Origin: Opitutaceae bacterium
GTDB lineage: Bacteria; Verrucomicrobiota; Verrucomicrobiia; Opitutales; Opitutaceae
NCBI GenBank assembly: GCA_947474995.1
Contig: CANJNJ010000020.1
Span: 11,036 to 43,035 of the forward strand
Direction of reading: 5' to 3'
DNA: 32,000 nt
Made by a program: the position numbers and the translations under genes
Part shown: positions 18,256 through 31,535 of the stretch, piece by piece
Numbering within the stretch: the stretch's first letter is position 1
How the letters are laid out: each line of letters opens with the position of its first letter
The notes under the pieces: generated by a model
The model's database searches: none
What the model saw: the letters and a program-made list of their open reading frames with translations, nothing else
Told to the model about the DNA's origin: nothing

Positions 18256-20718
18256 CTACGCCCGCAGCGCAATGCTCCCGTCTGCCGTAATCGCCTGCCG
18301 AATCTTCGTGCAGACGGCATTGACCTCGTCGTCCGTCAAGGTCCGCTCGCTGGAACGGAACACGAGGCTGAAGGCCAGGCTCTTCTTCCCTTCCGGCAGT
18401 CCCTTCCCGTGATAAACGTCGAAGACGTTCACGGACTCAACCGCGAAGGACTTGCCGACCTCCGTCCGCGCCGCATTTTCCACGACTTTCTGCACGCCCG
18501 CCGCCGGCACCGCCAAATCGACCACCAGAGCAAAATCCCGCAAGGCCGCGGGAAATAGACTGAAGTCGGCGTAGCGCCGCCGCCCTGACACTGCAGCAAG
18601 GTTCTCCGGGAGGATGGCAAACAAACCCGCGTAGACTTTACCTTCGACCCCGACGCTTTTGACCATCGCCAGGTTCAAGAGGCCAAAGCGGGCCGTCCAG
18701 CCTTGCTCCAACTCTCCGGCCGAGGCCGCGTGCCCAACCTGCCAGCCGAGATACGACTCTTCCACTGGCTTCACGAAGCGCGCCGCGAGTTGAACGCCAG
18801 CCGCCACCGCGAGGGCTTCGACGTGATGCTTGACGGAATAAAAATCCGCCGGTTCCCGCCCGCGCCAGCTGCGCTCGCCAATCGGATCGGCAATGACGAA
18901 GCCGACCGCGGCACACTCCAGATTCTGGCCGTTGCGCTCGATGAAAATCCGGCCCGTCTCGCAGAGGCGGGAAACCGTCACGCCACGCGACTGGTTAAGC
19001 TTGAGCGACTCGAGCAGCCCGGTGATCAGCGTTGGCCGCAGATGCGATTGGTCCTCCACGAAAGGATTTTGCAGGGCGAGTTCCGCCGCGGCGGTCTGCG
19101 AAGTCCAGGTGGCGACCTCGGCGGCCGGTCGCAGCGTGAGATTGACGCACTCGTGGAAATCGTGACCGACGAGATAATCAGTCACCCGCCGATTGAACTG
19201 AACCACCGGATCGTCATCGCCCGGCAAGCCGGGGGACGAAACCACCGCGGCCGGAATCTTCTCCGTGCCAAAGAGCCGGAGCACCTCCTCCACGAGATCG
19301 ATCGGCCGGTCCAGGTCATCGCGCCAGCTGGGAATTTCCACGGTCCACGCCGTGCCGCGATGGTCCGAGGGCTCTTCGCGCGTCACCGCGAGTTCGAGGG
19401 CCTCGAACGCCGCGCGCATGTCCGCTTCGGGAATCTCAAAGCCGAGCTTCTCGCCGATGAAGCCATGGGTCACGACAATCTCCCGCTTCCACGGGACTTC
19501 GCCGCCCACCTGATAAGCCGGGCCGACCACGCTACCTCCGGCCGTTTCGATGATGAGATCGATGGCCCGATAAGCCGCCTCCAGCGAACTGTGCGGGTCC
19601 ACGCCGCGCTCGTACCGGTAAGAAGAATCGGACTGCAGTCCGAGCGCGCGCGAGGTCGAGCGAACCGACTGGCGCTTGAAGCATGCGCACTCGAGGACGA
19701 GGTCCGTCGTGTCGTCGCTGACGCCGGAATTTTCTCCGCCCATGATGCCCGCAATGACCACGGGCCGGCTCGCATCGGCAATCACCAGCATGCCGCTGTG
19801 CAAGGCCCGCTCCTTCCCGTCGAGCGAAGTGATTTTTTCGCCATCCAGCGCGCGCCGGACGATGATTTGGTGGCCGCCAAGCTTCCGGGCATCGAACGCG
19901 TGCAACGGCTGGCCGGTTTCCAGCATCACGTAGTTGCCGACGTCGACGACATTATTGATCGGCCGCAGCCCGACGGCCTTGAGCCGCTCTTGCATCCACG
20001 CCGGGCTCGGCCCGATCTTGATGCCGGTAATCACATGGGCGCTATACAGCGGACAGTCCTCCGGCGAATCGACCCGGACTCCCGCAAGGAGATCGGGCCG
20101 CTCCCCCGCCCCACTGGCGAAAGTGCCGTGGAAATTTTCCTGCGGATAAATCAGCGGAAGTTTGAACCAGGCCGAAAGCTCCCGCGCGATGCCCAGATGC
20201 GAAAGGCAATCGGGCCGGTTGGGCGTAATCTCGATGTCGAAAACCACGTCGCCCGGCGGTAGCGCCTCGTTCATCGGCAGACCGAGCGCCGGCTTGTGGG
20301 TGAGAATCAGCAGGCCGCTGTGCTCGCGGCCCATCCCGATTTCGTCCGGTGAGCACATCATGCCGTCGGAGAGCTGGCCGCGGATTTTCGACTGCTTGAT
20401 TTCGAAGTTACCCGGCAGGATCGCCCCCGGCAGCGCGACCAGCACCCGGTTGCCGGCGTCGCAATTGTTCGCGCCGCACACGATGGTCTTCACGCCGCCC
20501 GCCGGACCGATGTCCACGGTGCACACGGAAAGCTTGTCGGCGTTCGGGTGTTTGGCCCGCGTGAGGATTTCGCCCACGACGACATTCGTCAGTTGCGGTG
20601 CGCCGGTGCGAATCACCTGCTCGACTTCGAAACCCAGGAACGTGATCGCGCGGGTGATCTCGTCGACGGGAGCGTCGAGTTTGACATAGTCCTGAAGCCA
20701 GTTGAGGGAAATTTTCAT
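18256..20718 (-). CDS. pheT: Phenylalanine--tRNA ligase beta subunit
   Basis: MKISLNWLQDYV start, tRNA-binding domain, B3/4, B5 and FDX-ACB regions. 820 aa, 40 bp downstream of pheS. Confidence 0.95.
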   Translation of the reverse strand: MKISLNWLQDYVKLDAPVDEITRAITFLGFEVEQVIRTGAPQLTNVVVGEILTRAKHPNADKLSVCTVDIGPAGGVKTIVCGANNCDAGNRVLVALPGAILPGNFEIKQSKIRGQLSDGMMCSPDEIGMGREHSGLLILTHKPALGLPMNEALPPGDVVFDIEITPNRPDCLSHLGIARELSAWFKLPLIYPQENFHGTFASGAGERPDLLAGVRVDSPEDCPLYSAHVITGIKIGPSPAWMQERLKAVGLRPINNVVDVGNYVMLETGQPLHAFDARKLGGHQIIVRRALDGEKITSLDGKERALHSGMLVIADASRPVVIAGIMGGENSGVSDDTTDLVLECACFKRQSVRSTSRALGLQSDSSYRYERGVDPHSSLEAAYRAIDLIIETAGGSVVGPAYQVGGEVPWKREIVVTHGFIGEKLGFEIPEADMRAAFEALELAVTREEPSDHRGTAWTVEIPSWRDDLDRPIDLVEEVLRLFGTEKIPAAVVSSPGLPGDDDPVVQFNRRVTDYLVGHDFHECVNLTLRPAAEVATWTSQTAAAELALQNPFVEDQSHLRPTLITGLLESLKLNQSRGVTVSRLCETGRIFIERNGQNLECAAVGFVIADPIGERSWRGREPADFYSVKHHVEALAVAAGVQLAARFVKPVEESYLGWQVGHAASAGELEQGWTARFGLLNLAMVKSVGVEGKVYAGLFAILPENLAAVSGRRRYADFSLFPAALRDFALVVDLAVPAAGVQKVVENAARTEVGKSFAVESVNVFDVYHGKGLPEGKKSLAFSLVFRSSERTLTDDEVNAVCTKIRQAITADGSIALRA

Positions 20719-20758
20719 TCGATGCCTTGTCTACGATACTCGTGGTTTCGCCGCCCGC

Positions 20759-21802
20759 TCAGGCAAATTGTTTGAGGAACCGCAGGTCATTCTGATAAAA
20801 ATAGCGGATGTCATCGATGCCGTAGAGCAGCATCGCCAGGCGTTCGAGCCCCATGCCGAAAGCGTACCCGCTCCACACTTCGGGATCGTAGCCCACCGCC
20901 TCGAACACCGTCGGATCGACCATCCCGCAGCCGCCGATTTCGATCCATTCCTTCTTCACCTTGGGAAGGTGCTTCGCCGTGAGGTCGACCTCGAAGCTCG
21001 GCTCCGTGTAACCGAAGTAGTGCGGACGAAAACGGGTCTTCGTGTCGGAACCGAGCAGCGCCGCGAACACGTAGTCGAGCAACGCCTTCAAGTCGCGCAC
21101 CGTGACGTTGCGGTCGACGTAGAGACACTCGAGCTGGTGGAAATTTGCGCTGTGCGTGGCGTCGGTCGTATCGCGGCGATACACCCGCCCCGGTGACACA
21201 ATCCGAATGGGCGGCGGACCCTTGAGCATGGTGCGGATCTGCACCGATGAGGTATGAGTGCGGAGGAGATATTTCTCTCCGGGATTCATCCGTGACACGT
21301 TGCCGAAACGGGCCGCGGTGGGAAAATAGAACGTGTCCTGCGCGTCGCGCGCCGGGTGATCGGACGGCGTGTTGAGCGCGTCGAAGCAATAGTACTCGGT
21401 TTCAACTTCCGGCCCGTCTGCGACCGTGAAGCCCACCTTGCGGAGAATGCGGCACATTTCCTCGCGCACGAGCGTCAGCGGATGGCGCGTCCCCGGGCCG
21501 ATATCCGGCGAAGGCAACGTCACATCAACCGCGGGTCCGAGCTGCGCGGCCAATTCACCGGCGGCTATTTGCGCGAGCGCGGCGTCGAGTTGCGCCTGCA
21601 ACTTCACCTTCGCCTCGTTGATCAGCTTGCCGAGGGCCGGCCGCTGCTCTTTGGGCACCGCGCCCATCTGCTTCATGAAGGCCGTGAGTTCACCGTGCGG
21701 ACCGACATAGCGCGCCTTGGCCGCCTCAAACTCCGGACGGGTCTTGAGCGTCGGCAATTCGGCGGTGGCTTTGGCGAGAACGGCGGAAAGTTGGTCTTGC
21801 AT
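20759..21802 (-). CDS. pheS: Phenylalanine--tRNA ligase alpha subunit
   Basis: Class II aaRS motifs: HPARD.QDTFY, LLRTHTS.VQ, GRVYRRD, and GCGMV.P.V....GYD....GYAFGMGLERLAML. Confidence 0.95.
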   Translation of the reverse strand: MQDQLSAVLAKATAELPTLKTRPEFEAAKARYVGPHGELTAFMKQMGAVPKEQRPALGKLINEAKVKLQAQLDAALAQIAAGELAAQLGPAVDVTLPSPDIGPGTRHPLTLVREEMCRILRKVGFTVADGPEVETEYYCFDALNTPSDHPARDAQDTFYFPTAARFGNVSRMNPGEKYLLRTHTSSVQIRTMLKGPPPIRIVSPGRVYRRDTTDATHSANFHQLECLYVDRNVTVRDLKALLDYVFAALLGSDTKTRFRPHYFGYTEPSFEVDLTAKHLPKVKKEWIEIGGCGMVDPTVFEAVGYDPEVWSGYAFGMGLERLAMLLYGIDDIRYFYQNDLRFLKQFA

Positions 21803-21910
21803 GAAAAGGAGGACGATAAAGGGCGGACTGGTATCGTGCGCGGATTCTCAAACGTTCGCCAGTCTTTCGTCCACGATGACGACGAGAGGTCGAACGGGCG
21901 GAGGTAACGA

Positions 21911-21952
21911 CAAAAAAGAAGGACGGCATCCCACATTCGCGGGACCCGTCCT
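21911..21952 (-). terminator. Intrinsic terminator between rplT and pheS
   Basis: The minus-strand RNA is AGGACGGGUCCC-GCGAAUGU-GGGAUGCCGUCCU followed by UCUUUUUUG. That gives a 6-7 bp stem plus a 4 bp stem with a small internal loop. It lies about 50 nt after the rplT stop and about 110 nt before the pheS ATG. Confidence 0.65.
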
Positions 21953-22004
21953 CCGGCTATTCGAAACTGGCGACGAGCCCACGAGGGGGTCGCGTCGTTC
22001 GGAC

Positions 22005-22388
22005 TCAGGCCTTCTTCGCGGCGGCGGCCTTGGCGAGCAGCGCGTCCTGAGCTTTTTTGACCAGGCCAGTAAACGCCACTTCGTCGCGAATGGCGAGATC
22101 GCTCAGCACCTTGCGGTCGAGCTCGATTTTCGCGGCATGTAGGCCCTCGATAAACCGACTGTAACTGATGCCGGCGATGCGGCAGGCGGCGTTGAGGCGC
22201 ACGATCCAAAGAGAACGGCGATCGCCCTTCTTCTTCCTGCGGGCGGCATACGCGTATTGCCACGCGTGTTGAACGGCTTCTTTCGCGTAGCGGAAGAGCT
22301 TGGATTTGTTGCCGAAATAGCCTTTGGCGTATTTCAGCACTTTCTTGCGTCGCTTGCGCGACGCGGGAGCGTTAGTTGCACGAGCCAT
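22005..22388 (-). CDS. rplT: 50S ribosomal protein L20
   Basis: MARATNAPASRKRRKKVLKYAKGYFG..., RRDRR-like core KKGDRRSLWIVRLNAA. Confidence 0.95.
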   Translation of the reverse strand: MARATNAPASRKRRKKVLKYAKGYFGNKSKLFRYAKEAVQHAWQYAYAARRKKKGDRRSLWIVRLNAACRIAGISYSRFIEGLHAAKIELDRKVLSDLAIRDEVAFTGLVKKAQDALLAKAAAAKKA

Positions 22389-22477
22389 GTTGTGTGATAA
22401 TCCTTTTAGGTTAGTCGCTGGCGGGCCGGCTGTAACAATTCACCCGCCGAGCGAAGTTTAGGTTGAGCGTCGACCGA

Positions 22478-22672
22478 TTACAGGCCGAACGGGAGACAGC
22501 GCTTGAGCGCCGGCGCGTGGCCTTCAGCCACCAGCTTGTCGCGAGAGGCACGTCGCTTGGACTTCGTGCTTTTCGCGCCGAGGAGATGACGGAAACCGGG
22601 CGTGCGGCGGATGAGTTTGCCCGTGCCAGACAGTTTGAACCGCTTGGCGACAGACTTCTTGGTCTTTTGCAT
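22478..22672 (-). CDS. rpmI: 50S ribosomal protein L35
   Basis: MQKTKKSVAKRFKLSGTGKLIRR...H, 64 aa, directly upstream of rplT. Confidence 0.95.
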   Translation of the reverse strand: MQKTKKSVAKRFKLSGTGKLIRRTPGFRHLLGAKSTKSKRRASRDKLVAEGHAPALKRCLPFGL

Positions 22673-22787
22673 GGAGAGAGTGTTTAAAAACAGAGGTCCC
22701 GCCCCCGGTTGGCAAGGGAATTTTCACCCACAAACGCAATCCAGCCGGCAAAGGCTAGCGTTTTGGCGCCTGGAACGGACCGGAACC

Positions 22788-24188
22788 TCAAGCATGAACG
22801 TAAACCGCGACGCTCACGGCAATCATCGAAAGGACCGTCAGGGCGAGAAACAGCGGTAAAACGAACCGGAACCACTTGCCGTAGGAAATTTCCGCCGTCG
22901 CCAGATAGGCGAGCAACATGCCGGAGGTCGGGGCGAACATGTTAATCAGCCCGTTGCCGAGGATGTACGCGACTACAGTCGCCTGGCCGCCGACCCCGGA
23001 CATGCCTGCGATCGGCACGAGGATCGGCATGCTGACCGCCGCTTTGGCCGAACCCGATGGGATCAACAGGCCGAGGAACATCTCAATCAGAACGAGTGCC
23101 ATCCCCACGACGTAATGGGGCAAATGCGCCGCCCAGCCGGCGAGAAAGTTGACGATTGTGTCTAGAATAAGCCCATCCTGCAGGATGATTTCGACCCCCT
23201 TGGCCATGCCGACGAGGAATCCAGCGAGCACCATGCCCTTCATGCCATCGATCATGCTGTGCACGGCCCGCCTCGGACCGAGGCCTGCCACGGCGGCAAT
23301 CAGTCCGCCCATGAAAAGATAGTACGTGGCAAACTCGACGTCCTTCCATCCCCGCGCCGTGGCGCCGTAAATCAGCACGGCTACGGAAAAACCCAGGAGG
23401 GCGACGATGGTCCCGTGGCGCGCGGTCATCGGCGTGGAACTCATTGGCGGAGCCGCGGCTCCGACCGTCGGTGTCCGGGCAAACCGCATGACGTAAAAAA
23501 TTCCCGCCGCCATGAACACCACCCAGATTCCGAGGCGAAACGCGAGCCCGCTGAACACCGGCACCCCGGCGATCGGCTGCGCGACCATCAGGATCACCGG
23601 ATTGGCGACCGAGGCGATATAGCCAATTTTGGCGGAGACCGTCACGACCGCGAAGCCAAACATCGGTTCGAGCCCGAGCCGCTTCGAAAGCGCCAGGAAG
23701 ATCGGGATGATGAGAAGGTATTCCGAAATCAACCCGAGGAAGGTGCTGCCCGCCGAAATCGCGAGCATCAGGATTACCGTCAGGAGAGCCGTCTTCCCGC
23801 TTGTGAGGACCAGCAACCGCTCGATGGCAATTTCGACCGTGCCGGTGGCCCGCAGCACGCCAAACATTCCGCCCAGCGCGGCGATCATGAAAATCAGGCT
23901 CGCCGCCCGCACCATGCCCGGCGGCACCGACGTGAAGATGGCGGCAGGACTGGCGGGGTATGCCTCCACGTTACCGGGGGCCGGCGCATGGGGCAGCAGA
24001 CCCGCCGCGGAAATTTCCTTCGGCACCGTGGCGTAGGTGCCGGGCTTCACGAGGCCCTTGGCCGTGCGTTGAAAAATACCCGAGGGAATGGTCCACGTGA
24101 GCAGCGCGGCCGTCGCCAGCGCGACCAGCATCATCAGCACCGGATCCAGCGACCAGGCGCCGCGCGCCTTCGGGTTGGGGGCACTCAT
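22788..24188 (-). CDS. YfcC-family integral membrane transporter (DcuC/IT superfamily)
   Basis: Multi-TM protein. It closely resembles E. coli YfcC: LTWTIPSGIF, NPVILMVAQPIAGVPVFSGLAFRLGIWVVF and IPSGSAKAAVSMPILVPIAGMSGV..ATVVAY. The ATG overlaps the upstream gene's stop (ATGA at 24185-24188). Confidence 0.85.
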   Translation of the reverse strand: MSAPNPKARGAWSLDPVLMMLVALATAALLTWTIPSGIFQRTAKGLVKPGTYATVPKEISAAGLLPHAPAPGNVEAYPASPAAIFTSVPPGMVRAASLIFMIAALGGMFGVLRATGTVEIAIERLLVLTSGKTALLTVILMLAISAGSTFLGLISEYLLIIPIFLALSKRLGLEPMFGFAVVTVSAKIGYIASVANPVILMVAQPIAGVPVFSGLAFRLGIWVVFMAAGIFYVMRFARTPTVGAAAPPMSSTPMTARHGTIVALLGFSVAVLIYGATARGWKDVEFATYYLFMGGLIAAVAGLGPRRAVHSMIDGMKGMVLAGFLVGMAKGVEIILQDGLILDTIVNFLAGWAAHLPHYVVGMALVLIEMFLGLLIPSGSAKAAVSMPILVPIAGMSGVGGQATVVAYILGNGLINMFAPTSGMLLAYLATAEISYGKWFRFVLPLFLALTVLSMIAVSVAVYVHA

Positions 24189-25045
24189 GCGACGGCCTGC
24201 CGAGTCCGCTGGGCCATGGCATGGGCAAAGGCCGTGAGATCGGCCTGAACCTCGGCAAAGCCAGGGCCGCGTTGAAACGTCGCTTCGTTCATGTAGAGCG
24301 CGCGATTAAGTTCGATTTGGACGCTCGTCCGCCCTTGGGCCGGCTGGCCATGGGTCCGGATGATGTCGGCGCCGCGGTACGGATCGTTGATTTTCACGTG
24401 GTAGCCGAGCCGCGTAAAATAGTCCGCAACCCACGCCGTAAATTCCGGGGCCGCGGTCGCGCCCCCGCGATCGCTTATGACCAAATCAGGACGTGCCGCG
24501 CCGTCGTCGCGGTTCATCGCGTTGCCTCGCGACTTCATCGAGTGGCAGTTAAAGTGGTACACCACGCCATGGCGGCGCCAAGCGGAGTCGAGCGCGGACT
24601 GTAGGGCCTGGCGATAGGGCGTGTAGTACCGGTCGATACGCTTCCGCACCTCTGCGACGGAGAGCTTGCGGTGGTACATCGGCACGCCGGGCAACGCGAA
24701 GCGACGGATGAGTCCCATGCCGCGTCGGGCGTGTTCACTCAGTTCAATCGGGGTCGGCCACGCTGTTTCGAGCAGGTCGGGGTCGAGGTCGCTCACCGCC
24801 CGGTTCGCATCAATGTAGGCGCGGGGGAAACACGCGGCCAGCAGCGTCGCGCCGGCGGCTGGCACAAAGCCGAACAACTCGTCCACAAACGCATCCCACG
24901 TTGTGCAGATCTCCTCCCGCGACGCAATCGGGGCAAAATCCTCCGGGTATTCGATCGCGCTGTGAGGGGAATCAAAGACCAGTGGCGCTTGTGGCGCGCT
25001 CGGCGCCCGCAGGACGAACGGTGCCGGAGCATCGGAAGGTGACAT
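24185..25045 (-). CDS. N-formylglutamate amidohydrolase family protein (PF05013), cytoplasmic
   Basis: Features are FDSPHSAIEYP, YIDANR, YHFNCHSM, INDPYRGADI and SVQIELNRALYMNE. No signal peptide. Confidence 0.85.
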   Translation of the reverse strand: MSPSDAPAPFVLRAPSAPQAPLVFDSPHSAIEYPEDFAPIASREEICTTWDAFVDELFGFVPAAGATLLAACFPRAYIDANRAVSDLDPDLLETAWPTPIELSEHARRGMGLIRRFALPGVPMYHRKLSVAEVRKRIDRYYTPYRQALQSALDSAWRRHGVVYHFNCHSMKSRGNAMNRDDGAARPDLVISDRGGATAAPEFTAWVADYFTRLGYHVKINDPYRGADIIRTHGQPAQGRTSVQIELNRALYMNEATFQRGPGFAEVQADLTAFAHAMAQRTRQAVA

Positions 25046-25079
25046 CGGCGAGAGGGTCGCAGGAGGAGTGCCCGACGGA

Positions 25080-26507
25080 CTAGTCGCGGTAATTCAGTGC
25101 CGGCTGACGGTCGCCGAGCAGAGCCGAATAGATGAAGCCGGACCCGCGACGTTTCTCGAGTTCCGCCTTCGCGTTCGCGATGACACCGGGCGTGGTATAC
25201 AAATCGATGATCGTCCCGGCCATCGTCTTCGCCGCGACATTCATGCCCTTCAGGCCCAGCGTGGTCCCACTGCAGGCGGCGGCCTGCCAGCTGTGGCCGG
25301 GAGTTCCCGGCGCAAATGAAGCGGCGCGCAGGCCGACCGTGGGCACCGCCCAACTCACGTCGCCGATGTCGGTCGAACCACCGCCCTCTCGGGGCGGGCT
25401 CGCATTGAAGGGCTGCACGAGCGCCGCGGTTTCCGGTGCCCCCGCCGTCCCAATTACGGTCTGCCCGAGCTTCAACGCGAACGCCCGTTCCTCCGGCGTG
25501 TAGGTGACGCCGCCGACCGCGTTGAGATTTTCCTGCATGATCCGGCCGAGCACTTCGTTGGGCAGCAAATCATAGACGCCGCCCGTAATTTCCCATTCGA
25601 CCTTCGTGCCCGTCCCCAGCGCCGCGCCGGTCGCGGCCTTTTCCACGCGCTCCCAAACCGAGGCCACGATTTCGCGGTTGGGACTGCGCACATAATAGTA
25701 AACCTCGGCAAAAGCCGGCACCACATTTGGCGCCTCGCCGCCGTGTGTGATCACGTAGTGTATCCGGGTACTGTCGGGCACGTGCTCCCGCATCATGTTT
25801 ACCATGTGGTCCATCGCTTCCACGCCATCGAGGGCCGATCGCCCGCGCTCCGGCGACGCCGCGGCGTGCGACGCGAGACCGCGGAAACGAAACTTGCCCG
25901 ACTTGTTCGCCAGCGAGGGCATCATCGTGATGCCATTGCGATCGGCGGGATGCCAGTGGACGACGGCGTCGACATCCTTGAAAAGTCCGGCGCGAACCAG
26001 GTAAACCTTGCCCGATCCACCCTCTTCGGCCGGGGTGCCGTAGACCCGGATCGTGCCCTTTTGGCCCGTCGCCTTCATCCAGTCCTTCACGGCGACGGCG
26101 GACTCGGCCGAGGCAGTGCCAAATAAGTTATGGCCGCACGCATGGCCGGCCAGAACCCCCGCGCGCTCTTTTCTCTCCGGAATAGCCTCCTGTGAAACGC
26201 CGGGCAAAGCGTCAAATTCGGCGAGCACTCCGACGACGGGTGACCCGCTACCGTAAGTCGCCACAAACGCGGTCGGGATTCCGGCCACGCCAGCTTGGAC
26301 GGTAAACCCCTCTTTTCGGAGTTGCTCCTGCAGGAGCGCGGAACTCTTCACCTCGTGGTAACCCACCTCGGCATAGTTCCAAATCTTCATCGCGATGCCC
26401 TCGTAAACGGACTTGGTCTCGTCGATCCGCCGGAGCACATCCGGCTTGGAGGTTTGGGCGGCGACCGGCAGTAGGCTGGCGAGAAGGATGGGCAGCAGGC
26501 GTTTCAT
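25080..26507 (-). CDS. Secreted M20-family amidohydrolase, AbgB (p-aminobenzoyl-glutamate hydrolase subunit B)-like
   Basis: Trimmed to the ATG at 26507 (MKRLLPILLASLLPVAAQT, signal peptide), because the longer ORF would overlap the receptor gene. Features are AEFDALPG, GHACGHNLFG, GTPAEEGGSGK and GGSTDIGDVSW. Confidence 0.85.
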   Translation of the reverse strand: MKRLLPILLASLLPVAAQTSKPDVLRRIDETKSVYEGIAMKIWNYAEVGYHEVKSSALLQEQLRKEGFTVQAGVAGIPTAFVATYGSGSPVVGVLAEFDALPGVSQEAIPERKERAGVLAGHACGHNLFGTASAESAVAVKDWMKATGQKGTIRVYGTPAEEGGSGKVYLVRAGLFKDVDAVVHWHPADRNGITMMPSLANKSGKFRFRGLASHAAASPERGRSALDGVEAMDHMVNMMREHVPDSTRIHYVITHGGEAPNVVPAFAEVYYYVRSPNREIVASVWERVEKAATGAALGTGTKVEWEITGGVYDLLPNEVLGRIMQENLNAVGGVTYTPEERAFALKLGQTVIGTAGAPETAALVQPFNASPPREGGGSTDIGDVSWAVPTVGLRAASFAPGTPGHSWQAAACSGTTLGLKGMNVAAKTMAGTIIDLYTTPGVIANAKAELEKRRGSGFIYSALLGDRQPALNYRD

Positions 26508-26570
26508 TTTAGGAGGGTGAGCGATCGCGGGCCATCGGCCCGACCCAAGGGAGGAGAGCGCGTCCACGAA

Positions 26571-26596
26571 CGGCGGCCGGATGGAGCCGGCCGCCG
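26571..26596 (-). other. Perfect 10-bp GC hairpin in the receptor/M20 intergenic spacer
   Basis: CGGCGGCCGG (26571-26580), 6-nt loop, CCGGCCGCCG (26587-26596). It starts 7 nt after the receptor stop codon and has no U-tract. Confidence 0.4.
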
Positions 26597-26602
26597 ACGG
26601 GA

Positions 26603-29600
26603 CTAGAATTGCCGGGTAAGTTCCATGGACCAGATGCGACCCGGGAACAGCGTCGCATGCACCGACGTCGCGTAGCCGGCGGTGTCGGAGGTCAGGGGCG
26701 GCTCCTGATCGAACAGGTTGATTACGCCAACGCGGACCGAGGTGTTGCGCAGCCATTTCGACGCATCGCGATCGAAGCGATAGGCGATCGAGGCGTTGTA
26801 GCTGATGACATCGCGGACGATGTAGCGGTACGCGAAGCTGCCGCTGTCAAACTGCTTGGCGATGTACTTGGGCTCGCCGAGCTGCGTGTACACCGCGGCG
26901 CTCGTCGTCGCGGCAGAGTCGGCAAAAGCCCCGGTGTAATAGGCGCTGAGGTTGCTGCTCCAATTGTTCTTCCGCCAGTTCATCGTGGCGGTGCCGCGCC
27001 ACCGGGTGGTGCCGTCGATATCCAGCCGCTCCTGATTCGTGGGCGTGCCCCCCACGGGCGTCCGGATTTGGTAGGTGCTGATAAGATAGCTCCAATCGGT
27101 GCTGAGCGAAACCCGGCCGATGGGCAGCGTCGGCAGGAGATAGTTCACGCTGAAGTCGATGCCGTTGGCATAACCGCGGGCGAGATTTTCGTACGGCGCA
27201 CTGCGCGAGAAGACGGTGCCCACCGCCGCGACCTGCTGGGCCGCCGGGCGGGTGGAATTGTAGGTAGCGAAGGCCGCCAGTTCTTGAGCCGTCGGCGCAA
27301 AACGCACAATCGCGGGATCGCCCTTGTAGTTGGCCGTGCCGCTGCCGGCATCGATCTGGCCAACCGCCCGGCCGGCGGCCAGCTGGGACTGGGTGTAGGC
27401 ACGGAGGAGCACATTGTCCGAGTCGAGAATCTGGGTGTCCAAGCGCGAGCCCACGACGTCAGCCTGATCGATCTGCCAGTAATCCGCGGTCACCGACAGG
27501 CCCTTAACCCGGGGCACTTCGAGCACTAGGCCGGCACTCTTGCCGGTGGAGACAATCGGTTTCAGCTTCGTGTTGCCCGAGGTATAATTGCGCATCACGT
27601 ACGAGGCCGTCCCCAGGCTCTGCGAGAGATAGGGGTCCACGCGACCGGGCAGGCTGTCGACCGTGAACTGGTTGGGCGCGTAGAGCGTCGGCAGGTTGGG
27701 CGCGGCGAAACCGCGGTTGTAGGAGGCCCGCACCATCAACCCGCTGTAAGGGCGCCAGTTCAGACCAAATTTTGGCCGCGTCGTCGTGCCGAAATCACTG
27801 TAATTCTCATAGCGCGCCGAGGCCGTCAGCTCGAGGGAATGGAAACCCGGGATTTGTTTCTCGGGCATAATCACGGGGATGACGGACTCAACGTACGCGC
27901 TGTAGACATTGCGGTTGCCCGACGAGTCAGGCTTGGGTGAGGCGAGCACGTAGTCGTTGTCGTCCGGGTTCAATCCGGAGCCAGGGGGATTAACCCCGAC
28001 GTAGGGCGCGCGATGGTCAATGAACTGCTCGCGCCGAACCTCGGCGCCCGCGGCCAGCGTCACGGTGTTGCCCAAATAGTGGAACAGCGGACCGGACGTG
28101 CGGAAATCGAAGCTGGTGATGCCGCTGAAGCCTTCGCGCCGCCAGACCTGCACGAAGGTATCGAGGACACTCTTCGGATTCGTGTAGGGCTTGTCGGCGA
28201 CCACTGCATTGCCGGACACGCGGAAAGTGGAGCCGAAGGGATTGAAGGCGGTGGCATCCGTCCGCCGCAGCGCTGCCTGGAACAAGGATTCGCGAACCGC
28301 GCGGGGAGAAATGTCTGAGGTATAGGCCCGCGTATACAGCGCGCCACTTTCCCAGGTCCACTGATCAAAAACCTTGCCGCGCAGGCCCACGACTCCGCGA
28401 TAGACGCCAGAATTGACGTCGACGGCTTCGGCGCCGTTTTCGAGCAAGGACAAGGCGAGGAGCGTAATCGGCTGCGCCGTGCCGGTCAGGCGCGGAGTGC
28501 CGTCGGAGTTGGGGGCCCCCGTCGGAGAAAAAAAACGCGAACCGTACGGGTTGAAGGGATTATCCACCGACAGCGGCGCCAGTTGGTCGCCCGTCGGGGC
28601 GTTGAAATTGATCGGCTGCCGGAAAAGTCGCGTCTTCGCATGATAGAACGAAAGATCGGCGAACATCGTGATGCGATCGGTGAGGTCCACCTCGACGTTG
28701 TTGAACCAGTTGACGCGATCCGTCTTCGACTGGCCGATGGTCTGATATTCAGTGAGGTTGAAATAGAACTCGGGGTTGGCGGCGCGGGTGGGCGCCGCGG
28801 CCGTCAGGGCCAGGTTGCCATTGACCGGACGAAAATAGTTGGTGGCGGTACTCGCGCCGATCCGGAAGGTCGGATAAATGCCAATGGTGGCGCGGTCATC
28901 GAAGGCACTGCCGGGCACATTGAAGGGCGCCGGCGCCAGCGAGGAGTGATCCGCGTTCTTGGTCCGCGCCCGGTCCTTGTAGGGGATGGGCTCGCGTCGC
29001 AGGAAATCAACCGTGGTAAGCCAGCGGCCCTTGCCGGCGCCGAATTCACGTCCGTAGGTCAGGGTGCTTTGGTAACTCTGGCCCTCCCCGTGCTCCGGCA
29101 CGCCCATGCGGACGCGCAATTCGGTGCCGCGAAAATCCCTCCGCATGACATAGTTGATCACCCCGGCCACCGCGTCGGAGCCGTAGATGGCGGACGCACC
29201 GTCGCGCAACACGTCGATTCGCTCGATCCCTTGCGTGGGGAGCTGGTTGACATTCACCGAGAACGCCAGCTGGCCACCGTCGGGGGAAGTTACCGGATGG
29301 GGCGCTACCCGGCGGCCGTTGAGCAGCACGAGGGTGTTGCCCGTGCCAATGCCGCGCAGGTTGATGTTGGCGTTGTCGCCGCGCGAGTTGGCGCCGCCGT
29401 TCGTGGATTCATTCAGCGGGACGCTGGTGACCTGCGGCAGGGCGGTGAGGAGTTCGACTGGTGTGATGGCATTGCGGCTATCCATCATCTCCCGGTTGAA
29501 GACTGTGACCGGAAGGACTTTTTCAATCTCCATCCGCTTGATGTTCGAACCGGTGACGGTGAAGGCCTCGAGCTTGAGGGCTTCCTCCTTGCGTGCATCG

Positions 29601-29734
29601 GCCGCGGCGGCCGCGGCTGAAGCCGCTGGCGCCACCTGGGCAGATACGAACGGAACAACAATGAGCGCAGCGGCGAGCAACCCGGCCAGCGCGAGTCGAG
29701 TAGTGTTGGATTTGGTTTTCATAGCGATCGGCAT
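26603..29734 (-). CDS. TonB-dependent outer-membrane receptor
   Basis: 1043 aa. Signal peptide plus an Ala-rich linker, and a plug region (LEAFTVTGSNIKR, ITPVELLTALPQV, INLRGIG...TLVLLNGRR). It has a long beta-barrel with a C-terminal aromatic residue (..MELTRQF). An alternative start is the ATG at 29722. Confidence 0.9.
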   Translation of the reverse strand: MPIAMKTKSNTTRLALAGLLAAALIVVPFVSAQVAPAASAAAAAADARKEEALKLEAFTVTGSNIKRMEIEKVLPVTVFNREMMDSRNAITPVELLTALPQVTSVPLNESTNGGANSRGDNANINLRGIGTGNTLVLLNGRRVAPHPVTSPDGGQLAFSVNVNQLPTQGIERIDVLRDGASAIYGSDAVAGVINYVMRRDFRGTELRVRMGVPEHGEGQSYQSTLTYGREFGAGKGRWLTTVDFLRREPIPYKDRARTKNADHSSLAPAPFNVPGSAFDDRATIGIYPTFRIGASTATNYFRPVNGNLALTAAAPTRAANPEFYFNLTEYQTIGQSKTDRVNWFNNVEVDLTDRITMFADLSFYHAKTRLFRQPINFNAPTGDQLAPLSVDNPFNPYGSRFFSPTGAPNSDGTPRLTGTAQPITLLALSLLENGAEAVDVNSGVYRGVVGLRGKVFDQWTWESGALYTRAYTSDISPRAVRESLFQAALRRTDATAFNPFGSTFRVSGNAVVADKPYTNPKSVLDTFVQVWRREGFSGITSFDFRTSGPLFHYLGNTVTLAAGAEVRREQFIDHRAPYVGVNPPGSGLNPDDNDYVLASPKPDSSGNRNVYSAYVESVIPVIMPEKQIPGFHSLELTASARYENYSDFGTTTRPKFGLNWRPYSGLMVRASYNRGFAAPNLPTLYAPNQFTVDSLPGRVDPYLSQSLGTASYVMRNYTSGNTKLKPIVSTGKSAGLVLEVPRVKGLSVTADYWQIDQADVVGSRLDTQILDSDNVLLRAYTQSQLAAGRAVGQIDAGSGTANYKGDPAIVRFAPTAQELAAFATYNSTRPAAQQVAAVGTVFSRSAPYENLARGYANGIDFSVNYLLPTLPIGRVSLSTDWSYLISTYQIRTPVGGTPTNQERLDIDGTTRWRGTATMNWRKNNWSSNLSAYYTGAFADSAATTSAAVYTQLGEPKYIAKQFDSGSFAYRYIVRDVISYNASIAYRFDRDASKWLRNTSVRVGVINLFDQEPPLTSDTAGYATSVHATLFPGRIWSMELTRQF

Positions 29735-30012
29735 CGTGGGATGGGAATCAGGTCAATTAGCTGGGGGCAGAGAACGAAGTGAATTGGGTCAGGATTTTTT
29801 TCGCCGCACGGCCACGTTAGTCCGGTGCGAAAAGGGGTACTGGAGTCGCGCGCGTCACTTTTGCCATTCGCCCCACCTGCGACCGCACTTCGGCTTCATC
29901 CCATTGCGCAGTACCGGAGCATCCGGCGGCAACGCTCTTGATGATGGAGGAGCCTGCATGGTTCATCGCAAGATCCAGAAGCGGGAGCGACCGAACACAA
30001 AGGAAAAGGCCG

Positions 30013-30043
30013 CAACTAGAGTTGATTCTTACAACACAAGTTG
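30013..30043. promoter_or_regulatory. Two tandem CAAC-N4-GTTG palindromes upstream of the regulator gene (candidate operator)
   Basis: CAACTAGAGTTG (30013-30024) and CAACACAAGTTG (30032-30043), centres 19 bp apart. They sit in a locally AT-richer stretch 14 bp before the ATG at 30057. Confidence 0.3.
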
Positions 30044-30056
30044 CAGGCTCTCGCCA

Positions 30057-31535
30057 ATGGCCCGCGCGACACTGCTTACCTTTGTCAGCTACCGGGATCC
30101 CTACCAGACGGACAACCACGAGGACGGAAAGCTCAAGGGCCCCGTCCTGACGGTTCTCGACGAGCGAAAGTTCGACCGGGTCGTCCTCTTTTCCCGCCCC
30201 CACCGGCGCGATCAGGTCGAACGAACCCGGCTCGCGCTCCGGGAGTCGCATCCCAGGCTGGCCGTCGAGATCCACGAACTCGCGATCGCCGATTCCACCT
30301 ACCACCCTGGGATCCTCGCCGTCCTGCGCCCCGCCCTCGCCAAAATCCGGCGGGCCCAGCCGGATGACGAGTACTCCATTTCATTGCTCTCCGGCACGCC
30401 GGAGATTCACGCCTGCTGGGTGCTCATCGCCGTCGCGGGCGAATTCCCCGCCCGGCTCCTCAACTACCGGCGTACAGTACACAACGGACTCGCGGGGCCG
30501 CGCTTGTTGCGCGAGCTCGACTGGAGTCATCCTCTCGCCGCGATCAAACCGGAGACCCTGGCCTTGCTTTCGACGCGCCGCGACCGCTGGGATGACATCG
30601 AGCAGCAGGGCCCAGCCGGCAATATGCCGCGCCACTATTTCATTCGGCGTTCGCTGGAGCAGGCCGTGCAACTCAGCCGCCACACGACCCCGTTGCTGAT
30701 CCAGGGTGAGCCTGGCACCCAAAAGCACCTCATGGCCGCCTTGGTCCACCAGTTGGGAGCACGCCATACCGGGCCTTTGGTCATCTTTAACTGCGCCACG
30801 CTGCCGAACGATTTGTTTGAAGCCGCATTTTTCGGCGAAGCGGGAGACGAAGCCGGCGGCAAGCTGCGCCAGGCGGACGGCGGCACGCTCACGCTCATCA
30901 AAATCCAGCATGTGCCGCCGCCGGTCCTCGCCCGCCTGTTCAAGGCCTCCGACGATGGCTACTATTATGGTGCGGGTTCGCGCGTGCCGGTGAAGACGAG
31001 CGTGCGGCTGATCGGCACGACGGACCGCAATCTGGAAGAGGAGGTTCGCCTCGGGCAATTCCCCGCGGATATCTGGCGGAGGCTCCAGGCCAGCATGGTC
31101 CGGCTGCCCCCCCTGCGCGAACGCCCGGGCGACGCCGCGCGGCTCGCCCGGGAAGAATTGGAGCGTCTCAATCGTACGCTGCCGCGACCGAAGCGCTTTT
31201 CCCCGGGCGCTCTCGCCAAGCTGGAGAGCCATGCGTGGCCCAGCAACGTCAGCGAACTGCGCCGGGTGATCGAACAAGCCGTCGTCAACGCCGAGCAAAC
31301 CGTGATTCAGCCCGGAGACATCGACCTCGATCTTTCGGTGAACCTGACCAACACGTTTGCCAGCGCGGTGCCTCGCATCCGCGAGGGATTCTCCATGGAG
31401 GAATACCTGCGCACCATCAAGCACAGCCTCGTGCAAAGCGTCCTGCGCAAGACCCGCGGCAATCAGAGCGAGGCGGCTCGCCTGCTCGGAGTCAGCCCGC
31501 AGGCGGTCAGCAAGCTGCTCAAGAACTCCCGCTAG
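30057..31535 (+). CDS. RtcR-like transcriptional regulator: RtcR/CARF-like N-domain + degenerate AAA+ sigma54-activator module + Fis-type HTH
   Basis: The N-domain aligns to E. coli RtcR: EYSISLLSGTPEIHACWVLIAVAGEFPARLLN versus DYLIHITTGTHVAQICWFLLAEARYLPARLIQ. Central module: PLLIQGEPGTQKH, NCATLP, ADGGTLTLIKI, RLIGTT, LPPLRERPGD, WPSNVSEL. C-terminal HTH: GNQSEAARLLGVSPQAVSKLLKN. An alternative start is the ATG at 29958, which has GGAGG 8 nt upstream but is followed by 33 rare-codon-rich residues. The ORF-track start at 29187 overlaps the receptor gene and is rejected. Confidence 0.8.
   Translation: MARATLLTFVSYRDPYQTDNHEDGKLKGPVLTVLDERKFDRVVLFSRPHRRDQVERTRLALRESHPRLAVEIHELAIADSTYHPGILAVLRPALAKIRRAQPDDEYSISLLSGTPEIHACWVLIAVAGEFPARLLNYRRTVHNGLAGPRLLRELDWSHPLAAIKPETLALLSTRRDRWDDIEQQGPAGNMPRHYFIRRSLEQAVQLSRHTTPLLIQGEPGTQKHLMAALVHQLGARHTGPLVIFNCATLPNDLFEAAFFGEAGDEAGGKLRQADGGTLTLIKIQHVPPPVLARLFKASDDGYYYGAGSRVPVKTSVRLIGTTDRNLEEEVRLGQFPADIWRRLQASMVRLPPLRERPGDAARLAREELERLNRTLPRPKRFSPGALAKLESHAWPSNVSELRRVIEQAVVNAEQTVIQPGDIDLDLSVNLTNTFASAVPRIREGFSMEEYLRTIKHSLVQSVLRKTRGNQSEAARLLGVSPQAVSKLLKNSR

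What the first reader, a model, noticed from the sequence alone, without database searches (positions are those of the whole stretch)
22788..29734. Four-gene TonB-dependent uptake plus two-compartment amide-hydrolysis operon of unknown substrate
Seen directly, four same-strand genes:
- TonB-dependent receptor.
- AbgB-like M20 hydrolase with a signal peptide, 95 bp after the receptor.
- N-formylglutamate-amidohydrolase-family enzyme with no signal peptide, 34 bp further on.
- YfcC-family inner-membrane transporter, joined by an ATGA overlap.

Established knowledge:
- AbgB homologues cleave aminoacyl or p-aminobenzoyl-glutamate-type amides, normally together with AbgA and AbgT.
- FGase-family enzymes deacylate N-formyl or N-acyl amino acids.
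- YfcC is a poorly characterised carrier.

Inference:
- The layout suggests outer-membrane import of a large N-blocked peptide or an amino-acid conjugate.
- The next steps would be periplasmic trimming, inner-membrane transport of the product, and cytoplasmic deacylation.
- I know of no characterised pathway with this combination, in which AbgB lacks AbgA/AbgT and is secreted, and FGase is coupled to YfcC.
- The degenerate RtcR-like regulator is divergent from it.
Basis: partly seen in the sequence, partly recalled or inferred. Interest (0 to 1): 0.6.

Follow-up and report, generated by a model that had tools for sequence, protein, structure and literature searches.

The report
TonB-linked amide uptake and hydrolysis operon
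This is a real, conserved four-gene operon that imports an unidentified amide-type nutrient, probably one ending in glutamate, and cleaves it in two compartments; it joins two recurrent gene modules and occurs almost only in bacteria that cannot make folate.

Summary
**Observation: confirmed.** The four minus-strand genes are there:
- TonB-dependent receptor (26603-29734)
- secreted AbgB-type M20D amidohydrolase (25080-26507)
- cytoplasmic FGase-family enzyme (24185-25045)
- YfcC/DcuC-type carrier (22788-24188)

The gaps are 95 nt, 34 nt and an ATGA overlap.

- In 76 of 80 loci across four phyla, this FGase subfamily is followed by an AbgT or a YfcC transporter.
- The nearest Opitutaceae loci have the same layout with a true AbgT where YfcC sits here. 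Some also share the downstream rplT-pheST. This is an in-place transporter swap.
- The receptor plus secreted M20D also recurs without FGase, so the operon joins two modules.
- The slot between receptor and FGase varies: M20D, M14, GGT plus an alpha/beta hydrolase, or nothing.
- A divergent CARF-type regulator and a CAAC-N4-GTTG operator travel with the operon.

**Roles excluded.** It is not histidine catabolism. It is not E. coli-style p-aminobenzoyl-glutamate salvage, because the genome lacks urocanase and folP/folK/folB.

**Best reading (about 0.45).** Uptake and stepwise hydrolysis of an N-acyl- or gamma-glutamyl-glutamate-type amide.

**Unexpected.** All 34 FGase-positive Verrucomicrobiota records lack dihydropteroate synthase, so a folate-salvage role stays open (about 0.2).

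The scan had already noted the AbgT variant in another genome (e1-3730472).

The parts
30057..31535 (+). Divergent regulator with an RtcR/CARF-like N-terminal domain, a degenerate sigma-54 AAA+ core (GEPGTQK Walker A, no GAFTGA) and a Fis-type HTH.
   Evidence: Pfam and NCBIfam and translation. Orthologues at 61-73% identity sit next to the receptor...FGase operon in 13 loci, 12 of them divergent from it and one (L017) on the operon's strand.
29735..30056 (.). Divergent control region. It holds two CAAC-N4-GTTG palindromes, at 30032-30043 and 30013-30024, just upstream of the regulator start.
   Evidence: Sequence read. The same palindrome occurs in the regulator-operon spacer of 8 of 12 loci and almost nowhere else in them; only L020 has one further copy. 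No sigma-54 promoter stands out and no riboswitch was found.
26603..29734 (-). TonB-dependent outer-membrane receptor, 1043 aa, with a signal peptide, a Plug domain, a beta-barrel and a C-terminal Phe.
   Evidence: Orthologues at 55-72% identity always lie beside or near an M20D orthologue (L001, L008, L041, L098, L107, L114).
26508..26602 (-). 95-nt spacer with a GC-rich hairpin and no U-tract. It may be a transcript-stabilising element or a partial terminator.
   Evidence: Sequence read. The terminator scan found nothing there. Function not tested.
25080..26507 (-). Secreted AbgB-type M20D amidohydrolase, 475 aa, with a Sec-type signal peptide.
   Evidence: TIGR01891 above its cut-off. It is 40% identical over its full length to E. 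coli AbgB (E 2e-106) and 26% identical to AbgA. The signal peptide is conserved in all 13 orthologues. PDB relatives are HmrA, PM20D2 and 3io1, deposited as an aminobenzoyl-glutamate utilization protein.
24185..25045 (-). Cytoplasmic FGase-family (PF05013) zinc-amidohydrolase-fold enzyme, 286 aa. It belongs to the 2q7s subfamily and is not HutG.
   Evidence: PF05013 at 5e-66. TIGR02017 (hutG) scores 90 bits against a cut-off of 279. PDB 2q7s matches at 2e-69. The AlphaFold model has pLDDT 91.5 and TM 0.92 to 2q7s. There are 68 invariant columns in an alignment of 21 sequences.
22788..24188 (-). DcuC/YfcC-family inner-membrane carrier, 466 aa. Its start overlaps the FGase stop, which suggests translational coupling. 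It stands where AbgT stands in sister loci.
   Evidence: PF03606 at 2.5e-64, with only a sub-threshold AbgT match (22.6 bits against a cut-off of 27). ATGA overlap read. It has 11 hydrophobic segments. The two close orthologues in the family sample both lie directly next to FGase. The genome has no AbgT gene.

Best explanation
This is a regulated nutrient-acquisition operon built from two recurrent modules.

**Module A.** A TonB-dependent receptor takes a scarce or bulky amide-type compound across the outer membrane. A secreted AbgB-type M20D amidohydrolase trims it in the periplasm.

**Module B.** A YfcC-type secondary carrier imports the small product. This carrier does the job that AbgT does in sister loci. 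A translationally coupled, cytoplasmic FGase-family zinc amidohydrolase then splits the product.

**Likely substrate.** The characterised relatives AbgT, AbgAB, HutG, the poly-gamma-glutamate (PGA) hydrolases, AstE and GGT all handle amides of glutamate. The most likely substrate class is therefore an N-acyl-, peptidyl- or gamma-glutamyl-glutamate ('X-Glu'), with glutamate as an end product.

**Control.** The divergent CARF-type regulator, whose ATPase core is degenerate, probably controls the operon through the CAAC-N4-GTTG operator.

**Shown here:** gene content, compartments, conservation, the modular build and the AbgT/YfcC swap.

**Inferred:** direction of transport, order of steps, substrate class and regulation.
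For: **Families and compartments:**

**FGase is followed by a transporter.**
- The follower is AbgT in 36 loci and YfcC in 40, of 80 loci from Verrucomicrobiota, Gemmatimonadota, Acidobacteriota and Burkholderiales.
- In Burkholderiales the unit is porin, then divergently FGase-IclR-YfcC, with flanks that differ by genus.

**AbgT and YfcC are interchangeable in place.**
- The window's FGase is sister to that of L001, which is linked to AbgT (SH-aLRT 95). It lies inside an AbgT-linked Opitutaceae clade.
- L001, L041, L010 and the window all continue into rplT-pheST.
- The own genome has no AbgT.
- Both close YfcC orthologues in 100 family genomes lie next to FGase.

**Variable periplasmic slot.**
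- It holds M20D in 14 loci, M14 in 2, or an alpha/beta hydrolase plus GGT.
- A PGA_cap gene lies upstream of the receptor in 7-8 loci.
- The M20D, M14, GGT and PGA_cap products carry signal peptides and the alpha/beta hydrolase a signal anchor.
- The GGT passes its equivalog cut-off.

**Fold.** After FGase-family entries, the nearest solved folds are phage poly-gamma-glutamate hydrolases, then M14 enzymes, MpaA and AstE.

**Regulation.** The operator palindrome is conserved in 8 of 12 regulator-operon spacers.
Against: - No biochemical datum exists for this FGase subfamily, for this M20D clade or for any YfcC of this clade. No paper linking them was found.
- The glutamate theme rests on family names and on accessory genes that are present in only some loci.
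- The closest solved M20D relatives have other specificities: PM20D2 is an Xaa-Arg dipeptidase, and the substrate of HmrA is unknown.
- NCBIfam labels YfcC a putative basic amino-acid antiporter. It labels the AbgT subfamily an efflux transporter. The direction of transport and the ligand are therefore not settled.
- M20D orthologues mostly occur without FGase. The two enzymes need not act on one pathway.
- Co-transcription is inferred from spacing only. The promoter and terminator scans were uninformative.
Confidence: 0.45

Rival explanations
1. **Folate salvage in a bacterium that cannot make folate.** The receptor would import pteroyl-(poly)glutamates. The periplasmic enzymes (AbgB-type M20D here; GGT, M14 or PGA_cap elsewhere) would shorten the gamma-glutamyl tail. 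YfcC or AbgT would carry the folate across the inner membrane. The FGase-like enzyme would convert the imported vitamer, for example by removing a formyl group or a further glutamate.
For: **The own genome looks like a folate salvager.**
- It lacks folP, folK and folB (tblastn).
- It keeps folC and DHFR.
- Contig C118 runs uninterrupted upstream of folC without folB-folK, so an assembly gap does not explain the loss.

**Within-genus contrast.** The two same-genus genomes have folP-folB-folK-folC and lack the operon.

**DHPS (dihydropteroate synthase, FolP) counts.**
- All 6 FGase-positive genomes in the family sample lack it, as do all 28 FGase-positive Verrucomicrobiota reached through loci. 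The family background is 54 of 101 with it.
- In Gemmatimonadota, 8 of 11 FGase-positive genomes lack it, against 11 of 81 in a phylum sample.

**Family precedent.** AbgT and AbgB are the folate-catabolite families (PMC7057599).
Against: - Burkholderiales (6 of 6), the two Acidobacteriota genomes and the record titled Bifidobacteriaceae (L057) carry FGase plus a transporter and do have DHPS.
- Only 6 of 47 DHPS-less family genomes have FGase, so it cannot be the general folate route.
- No folate gene lies in any of the 98 loci examined, and there is no THF riboswitch.
- Hydrolysing the glutamate off folate would destroy the vitamin.
- DHPS loss is largely clade-wide. The association rests on few independent contrasts, with one clean within-genus case.
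- 5-formyl-THF cycloligase is missing in FGase-positive and FGase-negative Opitutaceae alike, so it gives no discrimination.
Confidence: 0.2
2. **Generic oligopeptide or N-blocked peptide scavenging.** The receptor imports peptides, M20D trims them, the carrier imports a blocked amino acid or dipeptide, and FGase deacylates it. There would be no special role for glutamate.
For: - A POT di/tripeptide permease lies divergent to M20D-FGase-AbgT in four loci.
- An S9-like alpha/beta hydrolase lies in L010.
- M20D enzymes are broad aminoacylases or dipeptidases.
Against: - Accessory enzymes that recur are gamma-glutamyl or Glu-related, namely GGT, PGA_cap and M14.
- AbgT's only proven import substrate is an N-aroyl-glutamate.
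- No deformylase or acyl-peptide hydrolase recurs in these loci.
Confidence: 0.2
3. **Scavenging of peptidoglycan stem-peptide fragments** (L-Ala-gamma-D-Glu-mDAP and the like) released from dead cells.
For: - The fold search recovers MpaA and Csd4, which are gamma-D-Glu-mDAP peptidases, among the relatives of the FGase model.
- M14 and GGT neighbours are present.
- Opitutaceae carry many TonB-linked scavenging loci.
Against: - No murein-recycling genes (ampG, ldcA, epimerase, mpl) were seen in any locus.
- The structural matches are weak (TM about 0.37).
- This is a special case of the X-Glu reading rather than a separate mechanism.
Confidence: 0.08
4. **The classical roles of the named families.** Either FGase is HutG of histidine catabolism, or the cluster is an E. 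coli-type Abg system that salvages p-aminobenzoyl-glutamate for folate synthesis.
For: - PF05013 membership.
- 40% identity to AbgB.
- AbgT is present in sister loci.
Against: - The hutG equivalog model scores 90 bits against a cut-off of 279.
- No urocanase was found in the 96%-complete genome.
- There is no DHPS to use p-aminobenzoate.
- AbgB is exported here, and neither AbgA nor AbgR lies in the locus.
Confidence: 0.03

Closest known systems
E. coli abgABT (p-aminobenzoyl-glutamate uptake and hydrolysis)
   Same: - The M20D is a full-length AbgB homologue at 40% identity.
- Sister loci carry an AbgT that is 41% identical to E. coli AbgT.
- The logic is the same: a transporter paired with an amide hydrolase that releases glutamate.
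   Different: - AbgB here is secreted and has no AbgA partner.
- An FGase-family enzyme is the cytoplasmic hydrolase.
- A TonB-dependent receptor is added.
- In this window AbgT is replaced by YfcC.
- The regulator is a CARF-type bEBP relative, not LysR-type AbgR.
- The genome lacks DHPS, so the E. coli salvage role is impossible.
HutG N-formylglutamate amidohydrolase (histidine utilisation)
   Same: - Same Pfam family (PF05013) and fold.
- The active-site columns are conserved across the subfamily.
   Different: - The score is far below the hutG equivalog cut-off.
- No urocanase is present in the genome.
- The gene is always coupled to a transporter, not to hut genes.
PDB 2q7s (Ralstonia eutropha JMP134 'N-formylglutamate amidohydrolase', structural genomics)
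   Same: - It is the closest solved relative (E 2e-69; TM 0.92; 45% identity).
- The best Burkholderiales loci carry the porin/FGase/IclR/YfcC unit.
   Different: - The PDB search returned nothing beyond the depositors' name for 2q7s. As far as I know, no substrate has been reported for it.
- I did not check the gene context of 2q7s itself.
TonB-dependent nutrient utilisation loci (SusC/D-type PULs, BtuB-type vitamin uptake)
   Same: - An outer-membrane TonB-dependent receptor is co-encoded with periplasmic hydrolases, an inner-membrane carrier and a dedicated regulator.
- The enzyme slot varies between loci.
   Different: - No SusD-like family was matched among the neighbouring ORFs that were scanned.
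- The receptor is far below the SusC/RagA and BtuB cut-offs.
- The enzymes are amidohydrolases, not glycosidases.
Poly-gamma-glutamate hydrolases PghP/PghL (YndL) and GGT/CapD-type gamma-glutamyl enzymes
   Same: - They are the next-nearest solved folds to the FGase model after FGase-family entries.
- GGT and PGA_cap genes recur in sister loci.
   Different: - The structural similarity is weak (TM 0.36-0.41).
- This window itself holds no GGT or PGA_cap gene.
- No poly-gamma-glutamate depolymerase of the PgdS type was seen.

Membership tests
TonB-dependent receptor | N-terminal Plug domain plus a C-terminal 22-strand beta-barrel domain | tested here: met
   PF07715 at 2.4e-19 and PF00593 at 1e-22, both above their cut-offs.
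TonB-dependent receptor | Signal peptide and a C-terminal aromatic residue typical of outer-membrane proteins | tested here: met
   A hydrophobic N-terminal segment spans residues 14-32, and the C-terminus reads ...ELTRQF.
TonB-dependent receptor | Functional TonB box | tested here: inconclusive
   A candidate, LEAFTVTG, lies ahead of the plug. It was judged by eye only.
AbgB / M20D amidohydrolase | Match to the M20D 'amidohydrolase' subfamily model above its cut-off, with a dimerisation domain | tested here: met
   TIGR01891 scores 249 bits against a cut-off of 154. PF07687 and PF01546 also match.
AbgB / M20D amidohydrolase | Full-length similarity to E. coli AbgB, including the metal-site motifs | tested here: met
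   40% identity over 459 columns, E 2e-106. GHxCGHN and EEGGSGK are conserved.
E. coli-type Abg system | AbgA partner subunit encoded alongside AbgB | tested here: not met
   There is no second M20 gene in the locus. The own genome gives only one match to this M20D at E<=1e-60.
E. coli-type Abg system | Cytoplasmic hydrolase | tested here: not met
   The signal peptide is conserved in all 13 orthologues and absent from E. coli AbgB.
E. coli-type Abg system | AbgT-family transporter | tested here: not met
   The window carrier scores 22.6 bits on PF03806 against a cut-off of 27, and the genome has no AbgT. Sister loci do meet this feature.
E. coli-type Abg system | Host can use released p-aminobenzoate, that is, it has dihydropteroate synthase | tested here: not met
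   TIGR01496 gives no match. The only PF00809 hit is of the MetH type. tblastn with the congener's FolP finds nothing.
HutG (N-formylglutamate deformylase) | Score above the hutG equivalog cut-off | tested here: not met
   TIGR02017 scores 90 bits against a cut-off of 279.
HutG (N-formylglutamate deformylase) | Histidine-utilisation pathway present (urocanase) | tested here: not met
   PF01175 was not found in the 96%-complete genome.
FGase family (PF05013) | Pfam domain over its full length and the corresponding fold | tested here: met
   223 bits over positions 2-219 of 219. The model has TM 0.92 to 2q7s.
YfcC (E. coli orthologue group) | Score above the NF008611 equivalog cut-off | tested here: not met
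   185 bits against a cut-off of 500. It is a member of the DcuC/YfcC Pfam family (218 bits) but not an E. coli YfcC orthologue.
SusC/SusD-type polysaccharide utilisation locus | SusC/RagA-type receptor with an adjacent SusD | tested here: not met
   TIGR04056 scores 30 bits against a cut-off of 368. The gene after the receptor is the M20D.

The most novel reading that the evidence does not exclude
The FGase plus AbgT/YfcC pair would be part of a so far undescribed folate (pteroyl-gamma-glutamate) salvage route of Gram-negative bacteria that have lost folP, folK and folB. In Opitutaceae the pair is extended by a TonB-dependent receptor and interchangeable periplasmic gamma-glutamyl or Glu-releasing hydrolases. 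This would give the first outer-membrane-to-cytoplasm folate uptake path. It would also assign functions to the 2q7s-type FGase subfamily and to a YfcC clade.
Probability: 0.2. Interest if true: 0.85.

Novelty: new variant of a known kind. Interest (0 to 1): 0.6.

Why it matters
**Three protein groups would gain a function.**
- The 2q7s-type FGase subfamily has had a solved structure since 2007; the tools returned no assigned activity for it.
- The YfcC carriers are poorly characterised.
- The secreted AbgB-type hydrolases have no known substrate.

All three are tied here into one conserved, testable pathway. The in-place AbgT/YfcC exchange gives a concrete functional hypothesis for a YfcC clade.

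**A genetically tractable route exists.** Burkholderia, Paraburkholderia, Ralstonia and Pandoraea carry a minimal four-gene version (porin, FGase, IclR, YfcC). The substrate could be found there by genetics and then transferred to the uncultured Opitutaceae.

**The folate link, if it holds.** The operon would then explain how Gram-negative folate auxotrophs obtain the vitamin. About half of the sampled Opitutaceae appear to be such auxotrophs.

Tried and rejected
**Tools and searches that gave nothing.**
Contexts came from the search for related loci, the genome search and the fetch from genomes instead.
- Literature searches for FGase with AbgT, YfcC or PF05013, and for poly-gamma-glutamate with TonB, found nothing relevant.
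- A bare 'YfcC' search returned only a fungal culture-collection acronym.
- One DHPS search was wasted because I set too strict an E-value. It was repeated.

**Regulatory signals.**
- Sigma-54 promoter search: matches were no more than chance and none lay upstream of the operon.
- Sigma-70 promoter and terminator scans gave no signal above shuffles.
- Rfam found no riboswitch or leader.

**Functional ideas rejected.**
- HutG role rejected.
- p-Aminobenzoyl-glutamate salvage for folate synthesis rejected.

**Folate-related checks that did not discriminate.**
- Neither folC nor DHFR lies next to FGase or M20D in 98 loci.
- BT1 folate-transporter hits are weak and present in all genomes.
- 5-formyl-THF cycloligase is absent whether or not FGase is present.

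**Other.**
- Synteny with the congener G007 beyond rpmI was inconclusive.
- Flanking genes in Gemmatimonadota loci are housekeeping genes (ffh, rpsP, rimM, trmD, rnhB) and say nothing about function.

Full report
**1. Observation**

| Gene | Coordinates | Evidence |
|---|---|---|
| TonB-dependent receptor | 26603-29734 | Plug and barrel domains |
| M20D amidohydrolase | 25080-26507 | TIGR01891, 249 bits against a cut-off of 154 |
| FGase-family protein | 24185-25045 | PF05013, 5e-66 |
| DcuC/YfcC-family carrier | 22788-24188 | PF03606, 2.5e-64 |

- The junctions are 95 nt, 34 nt and an ATGA overlap.
- The long ORF that begins at 26756 is not the M20D gene. Homology begins at the Met at 26507.
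- The divergent regulator starts at 30057, not at the upstream ATG of the overlapping ORF.

**2. Compartments**

- The M20D begins MKRLLPILLASLLPVAAQ. This is a 20-residue extension relative to E. coli AbgB, which is cytoplasmic.
- All 13 orthologues in related loci carry an equivalent extension: basic start, hydrophobic run, then A-x-A/Q. It lies just before the conserved mature start.
- FGase has no hydrophobic N-terminus. The carrier has 11 hydrophobic segments. The receptor has a signal peptide and a terminal Phe.

**3. What the enzymes are**

*M20D.*
- It is a true AbgB homologue, 40% identical over its full length (E 2e-106) with conserved metal-site motifs.
- It is only 26% identical to AbgA.

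*FGase-family protein.*
- It belongs to the subfamily of PDB 2q7s (E 2e-69).
- The AlphaFold model has pLDDT 91.5 and TM 0.92 to 2q7s.
- It scores far below the hutG equivalog cut-off (90 against 279 bits).
- After FGase-family entries, the next solved folds are phage poly-gamma-glutamate hydrolases (3a9l, 5onj), then M14 carboxypeptidases, MpaA and AstE. The similarity is weak.

*Carrier.*
- It is a DcuC/YfcC-family member but not an E. coli YfcC orthologue (185 against 500 bits).
- It gives only a sub-threshold AbgT match.

**4. Conservation: module B (FGase plus transporter)**

An alignment of FGase homologues retrieved 80 loci from species-representative genomes. I clustered all their ORFs and labelled the clusters with Pfam.

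- FGase is followed on the same strand by a true AbgT (PF03806, about 600 bits) in 36 loci. These come from Opitutaceae and other Verrucomicrobiota, Gemmatimonadota and Acidobacteriota.
- It is followed by a YfcC-type carrier in 40 loci. These are the Burkholderiales, two Verrucomicrobiota loci (L010, L033) and the window itself.
- In most Burkholderiales loci the unit is a divergent porin, then FGase-IclR-YfcC (porin and IclR each in about 35-38 of 39). The flanks differ by genus, so it behaves as a self-contained cassette.
- In Gemmatimonadota the FGase-AbgT pair sits among housekeeping genes.

**5. The AbgT/YfcC swap**

- On an FGase tree the window's protein is sister to that of L001 (SH-aLRT 95). 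L001 carries AbgT. Both lie inside an Opitutaceae clade that is otherwise AbgT-linked (quick tree).
- L001, L041, L010 and the window all continue downstream into rplT-pheS-pheT.
- The window's genome has no AbgT gene at all.
- In a 100-genome sample of the family, the only two close YfcC orthologues (73-75% identity) lie directly next to FGase.
- YfcC is therefore a positional, and presumably functional, replacement for AbgT.
I found that version independently.

**6. Module A and the variable slot**

- M20D orthologues occur in 12 of 100 family genomes. FGase occurs in only 5.
- Fetched contexts show receptor-M20D, receptor-M20D-M20D or receptor-receptor-M20D without FGase (L100, L101, L103, L107, L114).
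- Receptor orthologues at 55-72% identity always have an M20D beside or near them.
- In loci that have FGase, the position between receptor and FGase varies:
  - M20D in 14 loci;
  - a 933-aa M14 carboxypeptidase (L018, L111);
  - an alpha/beta hydrolase plus gamma-glutamyltransferase (L010);
  - nothing.
- A PGA_cap-family gene lies ahead of the receptor in 7-8 loci.
- A POT peptide permease lies divergent to M20D-FGase-AbgT in four loci.
- These accessory enzymes have signal peptides or a signal anchor.
- The operon is thus one member of a modular family of TonB-linked amide-utilisation loci.

**7. Regulation**

- Orthologues of the RtcR/CARF-like regulator (61-73% identity) lie next to the receptor operon in 13 loci. 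In 12 of them they are divergent from it, and in L017 they are on the operon's strand.
- A CAAC-N4-GTTG palindrome lies in the regulator-operon spacer of 8 of 12 loci. It occurs almost nowhere else in those roughly 20-kb loci; only L020 has one further copy. This agrees with the earlier notes e1-3802403 and e1-3802405.
- No sigma-54 promoter and no riboswitch was found.
- Co-transcription of the four genes is inferred only from spacing and the start/stop overlap.

**8. Distribution**

- The module is patchy: 5 of 100 family genomes have FGase.
- The two same-genus genomes lack the whole operon. Their synteny stops right after rpmI.
- Even so, L001, L041 and L010 are as close to the window by PheS/PheT identity as the 'same-genus' genomes are.

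**9. Roles excluded**

- *HutG of histidine catabolism.* The equivalog score is too low, the genome has no urocanase, and the gene context is wrong.
- *E. coli-type salvage of p-aminobenzoyl-glutamate.* AbgT's role in E. coli is described in PMC7057599. It cannot apply here for four reasons:
  - The genome has no dihydropteroate synthase (DHPS, the folP product): TIGR01496 gives no hit, and the only Pterin_bind hit is of the MetH type.
  - It has no HPPK.
  - tblastn with the congener's FolP, FolB and FolK finds nothing.
  - folC and DHFR are present, and contig C118 is continuous upstream of folC without folB-folK. The loss is therefore real and not an assembly gap.

**10. The folate association**

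DHPS presence in FGase-positive genomes and in background samples:

| Group | With DHPS |
|---|---|
| Family sample, all genomes | 54 of 101 |
| Family sample, FGase-positive | 0 of 6 |
| FGase-positive Verrucomicrobiota reached through loci | 0 of 28 |
| Gemmatimonadota phylum sample | 70 of 81 |
| Gemmatimonadota, FGase-positive | 3 of 11 |
| Burkholderiales, FGase-positive | 6 of 6 |
| Acidobacteriota, FGase-positive | 2 of 2 |
| Record titled Bifidobacteriaceae (L057), FGase-positive | 1 of 1 |

- The two Verrucomicrobiota rows overlap in at least two genomes. L010 lies in G008 and L033 in G014.
- The 70 of 81 includes one unpublished genome, G204. Without it the count is 69 of 80.
- DHPS status is mostly uniform within genera. 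The number of independent contrasts is therefore small. The window's own genus gives the one clean case.
- Only 6 of 47 DHPS-less family genomes carry FGase.
- No folate gene is linked to any locus.
- I treat this as a real but unexplained association. It keeps a folate-salvage reading alive at about 0.2.

**11. Most likely mechanism**

*Shown.*
- An outer-membrane receptor, a periplasmic AbgB-type hydrolase, an inner-membrane carrier that stands in for AbgT, and a cytoplasmic FGase-fold hydrolase coupled to that carrier.
- All of these sit under a co-conserved regulator and operator.

*Inferred.*
- Transport is import, in the order receptor, periplasmic trimming, carrier, cytoplasmic hydrolysis.
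- The substrate class is an amide of glutamate. The characterised relatives all act on such amides:
  - AbgT and AbgAB on N-aroyl-Glu;
  - HutG on N-formyl-Glu;
  - AstE on N-succinyl-Glu;
  - PghP and GGT on gamma-glutamyl bonds.
- The porin-based Burkholderiales version implies that the FGase substrate itself is small.

I put this reading at about 0.45. Generic or N-blocked peptide use is at 0.2, folate salvage at 0.2, murein-peptide scavenging at 0.08, and the classical roles at 0.03.

**12. Novelty**

- No paper in the searchable library links the FGase family with AbgT or YfcC.
- The system is best described as a new variant of known kinds: an Abg-like transporter-hydrolase pair embedded in a TonB-dependent utilisation locus.
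- It could assign functions to three poorly understood protein groups.

Noticed in passing
own genome: contigs C118 (end) and C107 (start), C19:23288-27563, C114:2463-2939: The window's genome lacks folP, folK and folB but keeps folC and DHFR. The folC gene is split across the C118/C107 contig ends. The genome is therefore a predicted folate auxotroph with salvage capacity. About half of the sampled family (47 of 101 genomes) also lacks DHPS.
   Followed up: yes
L098:8102-9067, L105:6631-8763, L050:5690-6778 (also L080, L039): Class-A beta-lactamase-family genes and a penicillin-amidase gene lie next to M20D orthologues (L098, L105). They also lie upstream of FGase-AbgT in three Gemmatimonadota loci, together with an amidohydrolase; a P450 (all three) and an SDR (L050, L080) lie there too. 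A link to beta-lactam or acyl-amide catabolism was not explored.
   Followed up: no
window 30013-30043: Two CAAC-N4-GTTG palindromes lie just upstream of the regulator. The same motif is present in 8 of 12 orthologous regulator-operon spacers and almost nowhere else in those loci; only L020 has one further copy.
   Followed up: yes
L001:3938-5104 and 6-7 other loci: A secreted PGA_cap (CapA-like) protein is encoded between the regulator and the receptor. Its best NCBIfam hit is the lasso-peptide Trp epimerase MslH, far below the cut-off. The L010 alpha/beta hydrolase weakly resembles lasso-peptide isopeptidase.
   Followed up: partly
8 Opitutaceae genomes (G000, G007, G067, G008, G014, G015, G019, G076), 2 other Verrucomicrobiota genomes (G101, G124) and 3 Gemmatimonadota genomes: 5-formyl-THF cyclo-ligase (PF01812) was found in none of these genomes, with or without FGase. 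It was found in the Burkholderia control.
   Followed up: partly
window 22389-22787 and 18256-22388: rpmI-rplT-pheS-pheT directly follows the operon. The same junction exists in L001, L041 and L010. In the two same-genus genomes, synteny ends right after rpmI and the operon is missing.
   Followed up: partly
window 26508-26602: A GC-rich hairpin without a U-tract lies right after the receptor stop codon. It may set the ratio of receptor to downstream transcripts.
   Followed up: no
L100, L101 (G091, G008): Tandemly duplicated secreted M20D genes lie downstream of a TonB-dependent receptor, in loci without FGase.
   Followed up: no
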